From: Magallana gigas
Taxonomy: Eukaryota
Reading direction: 5' to 3'
Length of the DNA stretch: 64,000 nucleotides
NCBI RefSeq assembly: GCF_963853765.1
Contig: NC_088858.1
Coordinates: 2,418,001-2,482,000, forward strand
This document shows positions 33,501 to 36,500 of this stretch, in pieces. Position numbers: made by a program. Position 1 is the stretch's first letter, and each line of letters begins with the position of its first letter.

Positions 33501-36500
33501 GTTTGGATAGCATCTCTAGATGTATGCAGTAACAAACTGGTCAATAAGAAATATTGACCATTTCAGTCCAGAATTCAGTTAACCTTGAGAGAAGACAAAG
33601 ATCGGTGTCCGCACGTTCATTGATATTGGTCAACTTCGCCGCTTCAACCTGGCATTCTGTTTTATAAGTATAAAAAAGTCTACAATAGCCCTAGACTATT
33701 ATGTTTTCTCCAAATGTTTGAGTGACCAACAACAAATTATTGAGGGTTTGGTGTGGTTAATTAGACTAATGCAATTAGCGCTGGTCAGTGGAGACCGTCC
33801 TATAAGACATATAATGGTCAACACTGGTCCCTGACCTTCATGTCTGTTTACTTATGTTATTGCAGGCCATGTCAACAGTTGTGTGATGTTTTGATCACTT
33901 TCATACCACTAAATACATGCTTTTTGTAATGTACTGGAATCCATAAAACAGCTGAGTATAAGGTTTTTAAACAACCTTATAAAACTTCTATATGTTTACA
34001 TTTTAGCGTGAAGAATTTTACAGCCTTTTTATTACAAAGTATACTAGCTAATGACTGATATTTATAGTTTTCAGGTTTTAATTAAGGTTGCAGGCACCTA
34101 ACAACCTATTTTGTTTCTAATTAAGTCCAATTAAGTAAAAATACATATGTGTTCCAAGGAAAGTATATTTGTTAACCTCTACTCTCTACAAACTCTGGAA
34201 TCTACAGCCGTACCTTAATCTTATTGAGGAGAGTTGGATGGCAGTGGCCATTTTTAGACTATCTAAATCTCCTTCAAAAGATCTACGGATAAAGATATTG
34301 GAAAAAACAGGAAAAGAAATAGGGATTTTCTTTTACTTAGAAGAAGTTTACATTGCTAAATAAGTCATAGATTTGATGTGATGGGTATTTAGCTGACCAC
34401 AACGCCTCCTTAAGCCACAGATCTTGTGCAACGTCTATTTTCAAACACCAGTGTAATACATGACCGGGTAATTTCAAAGCAAGCCGAGAGTCATGAAAAT
34501 TCCATACAATTGTTTACTTCTAAGGCCAAAAAAAGTTTTGACTTTCGAAAGTTTAGTCAGAGTTTGATTTGTAAACTTACCTCAAACCCCCCACAGTTGA
34601 GGGCACTGTCGTTGATATTTAAAGGAGTTTCGTTACCGAATCTCCACAGAGAACTTCTCTGAGGGGGTTCCAACATCAAAGCTCGCTTCCCGTGCGTCCA
34701 CTTTGGCTGGGCAGAAACGGATCCAAGAAACAGCATCAAGAGGGCACAAGATAGAACACACCGATAGCACATTGTTTCACACCTACTATCGTATATTTAT
34801 AATCCATGGATCCTCACAATGACGTTCTGAAGCTTGCATTTTCACTCCATCTCATGTGTGGAAAACTATTATGAAGGAGCCAGAGTTTTTTCTTATATAA
34901 CACAAAACAGCACGAATCCTCTATTTCCTGTTCTTTGACTCAAAGTTCTTACTGGTGATATTGTAAAGGAAACAAGTTCACGTCCAGATCCAGTTTGCTG
35001 GTTGATCTATTTCCTGTGCTGGTCAGGTGAACACCGATCGCTAACAATTTTCTGCAGTTGGAAAGTTTACTTTAGTGTTTCTGATTTAACATGTAGCCAG
35101 TGACACGGATTTCATTAACCTTAGGTGCCCGATGACAGCAATTCAAAAATGAGTATCAGGCTCGCTGCAGAGCGACTCTTACATTCCTCTAACTCTGAAC
35201 TGATAGTGATAGTGATTTGTTAATTCCTTCATATATATACACGAAATGTCTCTACTGCTTTGTCATCCCTCTTCGTTCGTTTATCACCGCCGGCTTTTGT
35301 GTAGTAAGTATGATGTTCATCATGCATAATTCATTAAACTCTTCAAAAAAAGAAAAATTTGACAGTTGTATTTGGCGTCAGGGCTAATCATGGCTTGACA
35401 AGGTAAAAATATAAGTAGAGAGCCCTGATCATCAATAGGTACTCTGTACGCCTAGAGCCGGTACTCTGTACGCCTAGAGCCGGTACTCTGTACACATTGA
35501 GAGCCGGTACTCTGTATACATTGAGAGCTGGTACCCTGTACATATAGAACCGGTACTCTGTACGCTTAGAGAGCTGGTACTCTGTATGCCTAGAACCGGT
35601 ACTCTGTACACATTGAGAGCCGGTACTCTGTACGCCTAGAGAGCCGGCACCCTGTACATATAAAGCCGGTACTCTGTACGCCTAGAGAGCCGGTACTCTG
35701 TACACATTAAGAGTCGGTACTCTGTACACATTGAGAGCTGGTACCCTGTACATATAGAACCGGTACTCTCTACGCCTAGAGAGCCGGTACTCTGTACATA
35801 TAGAGCTGGTACTCTGTACACATTGAGAGCTGGTACCCTGTACGCACAGAGAGCCGGTATTCTGTACACAATGAGAGCCGGTACTCTGTACAAATAGAAC
35901 CGGTACTCTGTACACATTTATACCCGCAGTACTCTGTACGCTTACAAAGCCGGTACTCCGTACGCATAGAGAGCCGGTACTCTGTACATATAGAGCCCGT
36001 ACTCTGTAGGCCTAGAGTCGGTACTCTGTATGCATAGAAAATCGGTACTCTGTACGCATAGATAGTCGGTACTCTGTACGCATAGATAGTCGGTACTCTG
36101 TACGCATAGATAGTCGGTACTCTGTATGCATAGAGAGTCATGATCATCAATAGGTACTTTGTACATATAGAAAGGCTGCATTAACAAGTCTCACATTGTC
36201 AGTCTGCATATAATGTTACCATACTATTAAACTTGACTTCTGCCTCAATTTATATTAATTAAATGTTGAGGCGAAGACGTTCCAAATAAATGGCGTTAGT
36301 GGTTTGTATCCTAGCGTAGTACGCTTAGGGCTAGTGTCAAGGCTGAATTACCTGTTGTCCCTGGTAACAACAACAACAACAACAATAGATATAAGTAAGA
36401 TACAACATTTTGCTGATTTTCATTTATATTTTTTCTCTGTCATTAAAGACGTAATTTAAGTTTTGAAATTCACCCATTGTCATTCTGACATGAAAAGTTT

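What the first reader, a model, noticed from the sequence alone, without database searches (positions are those of the whole stretch)
34683..34709. Neuropeptide-like cassette (pGlu-PKWTH-amide) at the N-terminus of the LPMO-like protein
Seen: directly after the signal peptide the sequence is Q-P-K-W-T-H-G-K-R. Known: N-terminal Gln (pyroglutamate), Gly (amide donor for PAM) and dibasic KR (prohormone convertase site) directly after a signal peptide is the textbook layout of amidated peptide precursors such as GnRH/AKH/corazonin. Inference: the ancestral LPMO His-Gly may have been co-opted into an amidation signal, so one precursor would release a hexapeptide pQPKWTH-NH2 plus an LPMO-fold protein starting ALMLEPP. 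That would explain the lost brace. It could also be coincidence, because only one site is involved.
Basis: inference. Interest (0 to 1): 0.65.

Follow-up and report, generated by a model that had tools for sequence, protein, structure and literature searches.

The report
Neuropeptide look-alike on inactive LPMO
The nine residues are really there, at the start of a secreted relative of chitin-cutting copper enzymes that has lost its copper site, but nothing beyond the short pattern itself shows that a hormone-like peptide is cut from it.

Summary
Window 34683-34709 (- strand) does encode QPKWTHGKR, right after a good signal peptide. It opens a three-exon, 530-codon gene (exons 34581-34772, 30044-30416, 28846-29873). 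The gene encodes an AA15-type LPMO domain (Pfam LPMO_10 E 7e-8; TdAA15A/5MSZ E 3.8e-27), a roughly 200-residue linker and two 6-Cys repeats like those of insect group I LPMO15-1.

The copper site is gone. No signal-peptidase site exposes His27. His91 is Met, Ala89 is Ser and Tyr24 is Ile. Only the axial Phe remains.

HG plus a basic residue is the family's own N-terminus: the OfLPMO15-1 primer encodes HGRLMDP. So part of the "cassette" is inherited.

The neuropeptide likeness is formal. Pfam Adipokin_hormo scores 13.2 bits against a cut-off of 22.9. The ESM Atlas puts exon 1 nearest GnRH, corazonin and AKH precursors at 0.90-0.91. The hexapeptide fails 5 of 6 published AKH hallmarks. The loose pattern is expected by chance about once per few thousand secreted proteins.

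Orthologues, expression and peptidomics could not be checked. Most likely this is a chance look-alike on a pseudo-LPMO. I put a real peptide at about 7%.

The parts
34710..34772 (-). Predicted signal peptide, M1-A21 (MCYRCVLSCALLMLFLGSVSA)
   Evidence: Translation. Hydrophobic core and (-3,-1) rule: cuts are allowed after S18, S20 and A21. The ATG has A at -3.
34683..34709 (-). The finding: Q22-P-K-W-T-H27-G28-K29-R30, most likely the N-terminal tail of the mature protein
   Evidence: Pfam Adipokin_hormo matches residues 23-36 below threshold. In the ungapped alignment to 5msz_A, R30 falls on His1 and A31 on Gly2. The HG is three residues further out than in H-G-R-L-M-D-P of OfLPMO15-1.
34581..34772 (-). 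Coding exon 1 (64 codons), donor GTAAGT, phase 0
   Evidence: Residues 35-64 align with 5msz_A residues 6-35, E 7.6e-6. Tyr24 of TdAA15A aligns with Ile53.
30044..30416 (-). Coding exon 2 (373 nt), acceptor TTCTTTCAG, donor GTACGA, ends in phase 1; core of the AA15 domain
   Evidence: Pfam LPMO_10, E 7.1e-8. 5msz_A residues 37-161, E 3.8e-27.
30255..30257 (-). ATG codon (Met, exon 2 residue 54) at the position of the second brace histidine, His91 of TdAA15A
   Evidence: Alignment (esnMlGYFEFRLC against qapHiGFFEFRLC). The role of His91 is from PMC5823890. Ser two residues before it aligns with Ala89.
28846..29873 (-). Coding exon 3 (1028 nt with stop TGA), acceptor TTTTACAG. It holds the end of the AA15 domain, a Pro-rich linker of about 200 residues and the Cys-rich C-terminus
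   Evidence: The first 37 residues align with 5msz_A residues 173-193, E 0.041. Pfam finds nothing.
29812..29814 (-). TTC codon (Phe) at the axial position, Tyr184 of TdAA15A and F206 of TcLPMO15-1
   Evidence: alignment. Passages of PMC9156745.
29014..29118 (-). First 6-Cys repeat, C-X15-C-X3-C-X4-C-X4-C-X1-C (exon 3 residues 252-286)
   Evidence: Regex. Compared with C-X15-C-X3-C-X6-9-C-X4-C-X1-C of insect LPMO15-1.
28879..28989 (-). Second 6-Cys repeat, C-X15-C-X3-C-X5-C-X4-C-X4-C (exon 3 residues 295-331)
   Evidence: Regex. Same comparison.

Best explanation
QPKWTHGKR is the N-terminal tail of a secreted AA15-type (insect LPMO15-1-like) protein that is no longer a copper enzyme.

Shown:
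- The gene is intact, with three exons and 530 codons.
- It encodes a signal peptide, an AA15 domain, a long Pro-rich linker and two 6-Cys repeats.
- Of the six residues that the insect literature names as critical (His1, Tyr24, Ala89, His91, Tyr166 and Tyr184 of TdAA15A), only the axial position is kept, as Phe.
- His91 is Met, Ala89 is Ser and Tyr24 is Ile.
- The only His near the N-terminus sits five residues inside the predicted mature chain.

Inferred:
- Signal peptidase cuts after Ala21.
- The H-G-basic stretch is a relic of the family's H-G-R start. It has been pushed inward by five extra residues (QPKWT) and separated from the conserved LM.[DE]PP by three more.
- With the catalytic constraint gone, this end drifted. 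One added basic residue and a Gln at +1 produced a pattern that looks like an amidated-peptide precursor.
- The protein is secreted whole, or at most trimmed. It works without oxidative chemistry, as a binding or structural partner of chitin or another matrix polymer, through the retained beta-sandwich and the Cys repeats.
- No signalling peptide is made.
For: - Gene model: canonical GT-AG borders and consistent phases. There is no second copy in the window (tblastn) and no other HG...PP.R exon: of 5 regex hits in six frames, only this one is in an LPMO context.
- AA15 membership of the fold. A weak fold match of an exon 2 model puts 5msz first, the only 1 of at least 500 matches at E <= 0.001, TMq 0.42.
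- Loss of the active site at several separate places: His91 to Met and Ala89 to Ser, Tyr24 to Ile, Cys178 to Ser. The domain has 9 cysteines against ten conserved in the family (PMC5823890).
- No (-3,-1)-compatible cut before His27.
- The family N-terminus is H-G-R-L-M-D-P in OfLPMO15-1 (primer). Gly plus a basic residue is therefore inherited, not newly built.
- The loose cassette is expected by chance at 2.5e-4 per secreted protein.
- The AKH Pfam match is below threshold.
- The hexapeptide fails 5 of 6 AKH hallmarks and all of the GnRH consensus beyond pGlu1.
- No paper in the library prints the peptide or the ALMLEPP start: 0 papers in each.
Against: - Exon 1 sent alone to the ESM Atlas lands among GnRH (15 of 30 hits), pro-corazonin (1) and AKH (1) precursor clusters at 0.90-0.91, with 166-174 shared features and recognition 2372. 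By the tool's own calibration these values are more often seen for true family members than for shuffled sequences.
- Adipokin_hormo is the only Pfam family that exon 1 touches (E 0.13).
- Trp4-Thr5 is a conservative version of the FS/FT/YS hallmark at AKH positions 4-5. The stricter pattern was seen in only 2 of 2,000,000 simulated N-termini, though I defined it after seeing the data.
- The Lys-Arg sits exactly where the family's mature chain begins: R30 falls on His1 in the ungapped alignment. Cleavage there would leave a tidy domain start.
- The binding function is inferred from family membership only. Pfam, the Atlas and AlphaFold2 gave nothing for the C-terminal repeats.
- Conservation in orthologues was not examined at all.
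Confidence: 0.75

Rival explanations
1. One reading: a dual-purpose precursor. In neurosecretory cells a prohormone convertase cuts after Lys29-Arg30. Carboxypeptidase removes the basic pair, PAM turns Gly28 into the amide of His27, and Gln22 cyclises. The products are pGlu-PKWTH-amide and an LPMO-fold protein starting ALMLEPP.
For: All formal elements are present and contiguous. The Pfam AKH model is the sole hit of exon 1. The Atlas neighbours are GnRH, corazonin and AKH precursors. An aromatic residue at position 4 and Thr at position 5 echo the AKH hallmarks. The KR lies at the domain border, so cleavage would not damage the fold. A folded Cys-rich protein behind an N-terminal amidated peptide has a precedent in vasopressin-neurophysin (recalled, from no call).
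Against: There is a single site and no second copy of the peptide. The hexapeptide lacks Trp8 and the W/WG/WGX-amide end, has Pro at position 2 and is shorter than any AKH: 5 of 6 hallmarks fail. It has no GnRH consensus beyond pGlu1. G plus a basic residue is inherited from the LPMO N-terminus. The precursor would have 530 codons, against cluster sizes of 71-100 aa for the Atlas GnRH, corazonin and AKH neighbours. Only one of the three allowed signal-peptidase cuts leaves Gln first. No trace was found in searchable papers. Insect relatives of this architecture are expressed in cuticle-forming tissue, not neurons (PMC9156745).
Confidence: 0.07
2. A plain propeptide. The nonapeptide is removed at Lys-Arg by a convertase during secretion only to mature the protein, which would then start at Ala31, one residue in from the canonical AA15 start. 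The released piece has no signalling role.
For: The dibasic site lies at the exact border of the conserved domain. It is the only basic pair in exons 1 and 2: 1 site in exon 1, 0 in exon 2 and 5 in exon 3.
Against: P4 is His and P6 is Trp, so the site lacks the R-X-[KR]-R context that furin-type enzymes of the constitutive pathway prefer (recalled knowledge, from no call). No propeptide is described for AA15 proteins in the passages read. It is untestable here.
Confidence: 0.1
3. A gene-model artefact. The true 5' end lies in an unseen upstream exon that splices into this one, for example at the pyrimidine-rich ...GTTTCTGCCCAG|CC that ends at the Gln codon. 'Directly after the signal peptide' would then be wrong.
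For: A pyrimidine tract plus CAG sits just at codon 22. A TATA-like TATAAATA starts only 29 nt before the ATG, which would leave almost no 5' leader. There are no transcript data.
Against: An ATG in good context opens a textbook signal peptide in frame, with an upstream stop. Signal-peptide codons are pyrimidine-rich anyway. No alternative HG-type exon exists anywhere in the window.
Confidence: 0.06

Closest known systems
Insect and crustacean group I LPMO15-1 (TcLPMO15-1, LmLPMO15-1, OfLPMO15-1; PMC9156745, passages read)
   Same: Signal peptide, AA15 domain, axial Phe, and a C-terminal pair of 6-Cys repeats that begin C-X15-C-X3-C. The N-terminal words HG, R, LM and [DE]PP come in the same order as H-G-R-L-M-D-P.
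   Different: The His is not N-terminal. His111 (TdAA15A His91) is Met, Ala109 is Ser, Tyr44 is Ile, and Trp188 is Met by manual alignment. The linker has about 200 residues, whereas the whole insect C-terminal stretch has about 120. The repeat spacings are X4 or X5 instead of X6-9, and X4 instead of X1 in repeat 2. The insect enzymes oxidise chitin. This protein cannot form a histidine brace.
TdAA15A of Thermobia domestica (PDB 5MSZ; PMC5823890, passages read)
   Same: It is the best and only significant solved relative for all three exons: E 7.6e-6, 3.8e-27 and 0.041. The six cysteines of exon 2 and the Cys of exon 1 are in register.
   Different: TdAA15A is the catalytic domain alone, with His1, His91 and Tyr184. 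Here the corresponding residues are Arg or a displaced His, Met and Phe. There are 9 cysteines instead of 10.
LPMO-like proteins without polysaccharide activity (X325/Bim1; PMC7924993, passages read)
   Same: An LPMO-type fold put to a non-LPMO use.
   Different: X325 keeps a copper histidine brace and acts in copper uptake. Here the brace itself is gone. No sequence relation was tested.
AKH / GnRH / corazonin preprohormones (PMC5024129 and PMC7697785, passages read)
   Same: Signal peptide, then Gln, a short Trp-containing peptide, Gly and a dibasic pair. Sub-threshold Pfam AKH match. Atlas neighbours at 0.90-0.91.
   Different: The peptide has six residues rather than 8-12. It has no Trp8 and no W/WG/WGX-amide or PG-amide end, and it has Pro at position 2. 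The chain behind the site is an LPMO domain within a 530-codon reading frame, not a short associated peptide.

Membership tests
AA15 lytic polysaccharide monooxygenase (catalytic member) | Sequence membership of the LPMO_10 / AA15 domain | tested here: met
   Pfam LPMO_10, E 7.1e-8, 33.8 bits against a cut-off of 23, on exon 2. 5msz_A at E 3.8e-27, 7.6e-6 and 0.041 for exons 2, 1 and 3.
AA15 lytic polysaccharide monooxygenase (catalytic member) | Histidine as residue 1 of the mature chain (amino group and side chain bind copper) | tested here: not met
   The (-3,-1) rule allows cuts after S18, S20, A21 and G28, not after T26. His27 is residue 6 of the predicted mature chain. In the ungapped alignment Arg30 takes the His1 place. 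This is rule-based only, with no SignalP and no protein data.
AA15 lytic polysaccharide monooxygenase (catalytic member) | Second brace histidine (His91 of TdAA15A) | tested here: not met
   Met at the aligned position. The role of the residue is from PMC5823890.
AA15 lytic polysaccharide monooxygenase (catalytic member) | Axial Tyr or Phe (Tyr184 / F206) | tested here: met
   Phe aligned with Tyr184. Phe is the group I state.
AA15 lytic polysaccharide monooxygenase (catalytic member) | Ten conserved cysteines | tested here: not met
   9 cysteines in the domain, 1 + 6 + 2 by exon. Ser aligns with Cys178. The figure of ten is from PMC5823890.
AA15 lytic polysaccharide monooxygenase (catalytic member) | Copper-dependent oxidative cleavage of chitin or cellulose | not testable with these tools
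   This needs recombinant protein.
Group I LPMO15-1 architecture | C-terminal motif of two repeats C-X15-C-X3-C-X6-9-C-X4-C-X1-C | tested here: inconclusive
   Two repeats are found with C-X15-C-X3-C and then X4/X4/X1 and X5/X4/X4. The start is identical and the later spacings differ. No sequence comparison with an insect repeat was possible. Pfam and the Atlas do not recognise the domain.
Adipokinetic hormone family (hallmarks of Li et al. 2016, PMC5024129) | Length of 8, 9 or 10 residues | tested here: not met
   Six residues precede the Gly.
Adipokinetic hormone family (hallmarks of Li et al. 2016, PMC5024129) | pGlu at position 1 | tested here: inconclusive
   Gln22 is first only if the cut is after A21, which is one of three allowed cuts. 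Cyclisation cannot be tested here.
Adipokinetic hormone family (hallmarks of Li et al. 2016, PMC5024129) | Aliphatic or aromatic residue at position 2; FS, FT or YS at positions 4-5 | tested here: not met
   Pro at position 2. WT at positions 4-5 is a conservative look-alike, not one of the three listed pairs.
Adipokinetic hormone family (hallmarks of Li et al. 2016, PMC5024129) | Trp at position 8 and a W-, WG- or WGX-amide C-terminus | tested here: not met
   The peptide ends at His6.
Adipokinetic hormone family (hallmarks of Li et al. 2016, PMC5024129) | Pfam PF06377 at its gathering score | tested here: not met
   13.2 bits against a cut-off of 22.9, E 0.13.
GnRH family | pGlu1-His2-Trp3-Ser4, Gly6, Pro9-Gly10-amide (vertebrate and ascidian consensus). 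The one molluscan form seen in the passages, Hdh-GnRH of abalone, has 11 residues | tested here: not met
   Only a possible pGlu1 is shared. Consensus and the molluscan example are from PMC7697785. Pfam GnRH was not among the exon 1 matches. The Atlas likeness of 0.91 is a lead, not a test.
Amidated-peptide precursor (generic) | Signal peptide, peptide, Gly, dibasic site | tested here: met
   This is a formal layout only.
Amidated-peptide precursor (generic) | Expression in secretory cells with PC1/3 or PC2 and PAM; the peptide detected; the cassette conserved in orthologues | not testable with these tools
   No expression or MS data. The genome-contig scan (bacteria and archaea) gave 0 relatives.

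The most novel reading that the evidence does not exclude
An LPMO-fold gene that lost its copper site has been re-used as a prohormone. The relic His-Gly-basic N-terminus became an amidation and cleavage signal. One transcript would then yield a short pGlu...His-amide peptide, distantly AKH/GnRH-like in its first five positions, and an LPMO-fold carrier that starts at the old domain border. This would be a caught-in-the-act birth of a neuropeptide from an enzyme's N-terminus. A lesser novel reading: the Met residues now at the His91 and (by manual alignment) Tyr166 positions form a different, thioether-type metal site.
Probability: 0.07. Interest if true: 0.8.

Novelty: new variant of a known kind. 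Interest (0 to 1): 0.3.

Why it matters
If the ordinary reading is right, the value is modest. It documents an animal AA15 homologue with group I architecture in which the histidine brace and the substrate-face aromatic residues are all replaced while the fold and 9 of 10 cysteines are kept. That makes it a pseudo-LPMO, and its non-oxidative role, probably matrix or chitin binding, could be tested.

It also gives a worked warning for motif-based neuropeptide mining. LPMO-type N-termini (signal peptide, then H-G-basic) sit one or two substitutions away from a Gly-dibasic amidation signal. Both a profile HMM and a protein language model are drawn to that look-alike when given the first exon alone.

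If the peptide were real, it would show how a new signalling peptide can arise from the end of a decaying enzyme.

Tried and rejected
- Paralogue search in the window by tblastn with the three exon translations: only self-hits, next best E 0.62.
- Regex search of all six frames for a canonical HG...PP.R or HG[RK]L exon: 5 hits. The 4 others have stop codons nearby and no LPMO context.
- Genome-contig scan with exon 2: 36 pattern matches, 0 confirmed relatives. The collection holds bacteria and archaea only, so this says nothing about animal orthologues. The permitted second scan was not used.
- ESM Atlas on the C-terminal 106 residues: best score 0.78, recognition 1672, no usable lead.
- Pfam on exon 3 and on its C-terminal 106 residues: 0 families.
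- AlphaFold2 on the C-terminal 106 residues, single sequence: mean pLDDT 42.5, too poor to search with.
- AlphaFold2 on exon 2 alone: mean pLDDT 56.0, pTM 0.56. Its PDB fold search put 5msz first at E 9.9e-4 and TMq 0.42, with nothing else at E <= 0.001. This agrees with the sequence result and adds little.
- PDB sequence search with the whole of exon 3: no AA15 match at E <= 1, because the domain part is only about 30 of 341 residues. Sending the first 37 residues alone gave the match.
- Fetching the 5msz_A chain to read its first five residues failed, because it is not an id the tool knows. The N-terminus of TdAA15A itself was therefore not seen.
- Paper searches with 0 papers: 'PKWTHG'; 'QPKWTH', 'LMLEPP' and 'PKWTHamide'; LPMO with 'shell matrix' and 'mantle'. 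A search for non-catalytic LPMO-like proteins with N-terminal extensions listed 7 papers, none on an animal pseudo-LPMO judging by title and abstract.
- tRNA and Rfam scans of the window: 0 and 0.
- Rejected idea, exon shuffling from a neuropeptide gene: the same exon carries residues 6-35 of the AA15 domain.
- Rejected idea, stepwise dipeptidyl trimming to expose His27: after Gln-Pro the next pair, Lys-Trp, is not an X-Pro or X-Ala pair (inference from recalled enzyme specificity).
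Full report
**1. The observation**

Read on the - strand, window 34683-34709 gives QPKWTHGKR. The surrounding frame (34557-34796) contains one ATG, at 34772, followed by MCYRCVLSCALLMLFLGSVSA. A sliding hydropathy average peaks over residues 8-16. The (-3,-1) rule allows signal-peptidase cuts after S18, S20 and A21, and formally after G28, which is too far from the core. It does not allow a cut after T26, where position -3 is Lys. 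The statement 'Gln directly after the signal peptide' therefore rests on the best of three allowed sites. No signal-peptide predictor was available. The window has no N.

**2. The gene**

The frame ends at a GTAAGT donor after ...NCGGFE. Two further - strand exons follow with canonical borders and matching phases:
- 30044-30416, acceptor TTCTTTCAG, donor GTACGA, ending in phase 1.
- 28846-29873, acceptor TTTTACAG, stop TGA.

The lengths of 192 + 373 + 1028 nt make 531 codons including the stop. The joined protein was never built, searched or folded, so all whole-protein statements here are sums of per-exon results.

**3. What the protein is**

- Exon 2 matches Pfam LPMO_10 (E 7.1e-8) and residues 37-161 of TdAA15A, the firebrat AA15 LPMO (5msz_A, E 3.8e-27).
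- Exon 1 residues 35-64 match 5msz_A residues 6-35 (E 7.6e-6).
- The first 37 residues of exon 3 match 5msz_A residues 173-193 (E 0.041).
- A single-sequence AlphaFold2 model of exon 2 was mediocre (pLDDT 56.0). It still found 5msz as the only PDB match at E <= 0.001.
- Behind the domain come about 200 residues rich in Pro, then two cysteine repeats, C-X15-C-X3-C-X4-C-X4-C-X1-C and C-X15-C-X3-C-X5-C-X4-C-X4-C.
- Passages of PMC9156745 describe insect and crustacean group I LPMO15-1 as an AA15 domain plus two repeats C-X15-C-X3-C-X6-9-C-X4-C-X1-C, with Phe in the axial position.

The architecture is thus LPMO15-1-like, with a much longer linker and altered later spacings. Pfam, the ESM Atlas and AlphaFold2 did not recognise the C-terminal part.

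The AA15 family is reported from molluscs, arthropods, cnidarians, algae and oomycetes (PMC5823890). I did not determine the organism. I did not take the contig for human.

**4. The copper site is gone in several places**

PMC5823890 and PMC9156745 (passages) name these residues of TdAA15A: His1 and His91 (brace), Ala89, Tyr184 (axial), and Tyr24 and Tyr166 (substrate face). In the alignments here:
- His91 is Met and Ala89 is Ser.
- Tyr24 is Ile.
- Tyr184 is Phe, as in group I.
- Tyr166 falls on Met by my own manual extension of the alignments (T-G-x-R-[Y/M]-G). That placement is an inference, not a tool result.
- Cys178 is Ser. The domain has 9 cysteines where the family conserves ten.

So 1 of the 6 named residues is kept. 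The rest of the fold is well conserved. The gene is intact but cannot form a histidine brace, which makes it a pseudo-LPMO.

**5. Where the nine residues sit in the family frame**

The expression primer for OfLPMO15-1 printed in PMC9156745 places CAT GGA AGA TTG ATG GAC CC directly behind a Kex2 site. This means the mature insect enzyme starts H-G-R-L-M-D-P. The window has H27-G28-K29-R30-A31-L32-M33-L34-E35-P36-P37.

Two alignments are possible:
- HG is the old N-terminus, with three extra residues before LM.EPP.
- Without gaps, Arg30 takes the place of His1 and Ala31 that of Gly2 (where E35 aligns with residue 6 of the mature chain).

On either alignment, Lys-Arg sits at the border where the family's mature chain begins. 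A Gly followed by a basic residue is a family heirloom and not a new invention.

What is new is five residues (QPKWT) between the signal-peptide cut and the His, plus one more basic residue. I could not see the N-terminal alignments of the family. They are in Supplementary Fig. 3 of PMC5823890 and Supplementary Fig. 2 of PMC9156745, and supplements were closed. How general H-G-basic is therefore rests on this one primer.

**6. How neuropeptide-like is it?**

The layout is formally complete:
- The only Pfam family that exon 1 touches is Adipokin_hormo, over residues 23-36, at E 0.13 and 13.2 bits against a gathering score of 22.9.
- The ESM Atlas feature search on exon 1 returned 30 hits. Of these, 15 belong to the GnRH set, 1 to pro-corazonin, 1 to an AKH prohormone cluster and 2 to an unnamed arthropod cluster, all at 0.90-0.91 with 166-174 shared features and recognition 2372. 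Lower rows are other small neuropeptide precursors.

By the tool's own calibration, such values are commoner for true relatives than for shuffled sequences. That calibration does not fit this case. The Atlas says the same thing again and not a new thing.

Against membership:
- Li et al. 2016 (PMC5024129, passages) define AKHs by six hallmarks: 8-10 residues, pGlu1, an aliphatic or aromatic residue at 2, FS/FT/YS at 4-5, Trp8, and a W-, WG- or WGX-amide end. The predicted pGlu-PKWTH-amide could meet only pGlu1. WT at positions 4-5 is a conservative near-miss.
- The GnRH consensus (pGlu-His-Trp-Ser, Gly6, Pro-Gly-amide) and the 11-residue molluscan form Hdh-GnRH printed in PMC7697785 are not met either.

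**7. Chance**

These figures come from simulated N-termini drawn from this gene's own composition:
- Gln at +1 together with G[KR][KR] after 2-12 residues appears at 2.5e-4. That is about one case per several thousand secreted proteins, roughly one per animal genome. The proteome size is my assumption.
- If HG plus one basic residue is given by descent, the rest costs about 7e-3.
- The stricter AKH-flavoured pattern is rare (2 of 2,000,000), but I framed it after seeing the sequence.

**8. Verdict on mechanism**

The most likely reading (0.75) is that the nonapeptide is the drifted N-terminal tail of a secreted, non-catalytic AA15/LPMO15-1-like protein. That protein would act by binding, not by oxidation, and no signalling peptide would be made.

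The rivals are:
- A plain Lys-Arg propeptide without signalling (0.10). This is weakened because the site lacks an Arg at P4 (recalled furin preference).
- A mis-modelled 5' end (0.06). A pyrimidine tract plus CAG ends exactly at the Gln codon, and a TATA-like box lies only 29 nt before the ATG.

General loss of catalytic constraint explains both those losses and the freedom of the N-terminus to drift.

**9. What stayed unchecked**

The open genome collection holds only bacteria and archaea and gave nothing.
- Expression.
- Any MS data. Neuropeptidome and secretome tables are mostly supplements.
- In the searchable full texts, neither the peptide nor the ALMLEPP start occurs: 0 papers and 0. 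I found no paper linking LPMOs with shell matrix and mantle (0 papers).

Noticed in passing
window 35438-36137: A 24-nt satellite (about 30 copies, 80% matches; also read as periods of 46 and 140) starts about 670 bp upstream of the gene's ATG. It accounts for the long repetitive pseudo-ORFs (AYRVPAL...) in that stretch.
   Followed up: partly
window 23308-25014 and 25774-27535: Two large tandem arrays lie just downstream of the gene: a 41-43-nt unit (higher-order periods 82-172) and a 22-nt unit with 80 copies at 87% matches. The 22-nt array explains the GC skew of -0.48 at 26001-28000.
   Followed up: partly
window 4281-4661 (-): An open frame ends in a C3HC4 RING finger (Pfam zf-C3HC4_3, E 6.1e-14). 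It is probably the last exon of an E3 ligase-type gene.
   Followed up: partly
window 2-1948 (+): A 649-codon open frame runs off the left edge in a stretch of 50% G+C, against about 33% elsewhere. It is Ser-, Asp- and Pro-rich and has no Pfam match. It looks like a large exon of a disordered protein.
   Followed up: partly
window 57028-57663 (+): A 212-codon open frame in a local G+C rise (0.40) with no Pfam family. It may be a coding exon.
   Followed up: no
window 9143-9391: A 39-nt tandem repeat, 6.4 copies at 96% matches, is open in two opposite frames.
   Followed up: no
window 34794-34801 (-) and 34707-34733 (-): A TATAAATA lies 29 nt before the ATG, which would leave almost no 5' leader. 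A pyrimidine-rich run ending in CAG lies inside the signal-peptide codons, exactly at the Gln codon. Both bear on how sure the first exon is.
   Followed up: partly
window 30255-30257 (-), 29863-29865 (-), 34674-34676 (-): Methionines stand at the His91 position, at the Tyr166 position (by manual alignment) and at residue 33 near the N-terminus. Whether they form some thioether-type metal site in place of the brace is pure speculation.
   Followed up: no
window 42350-42427, 43126-43201, 58231-58294: Perfect dinucleotide microsatellites: (TA)39, (TA)38 and (GA)32.
   Followed up: no
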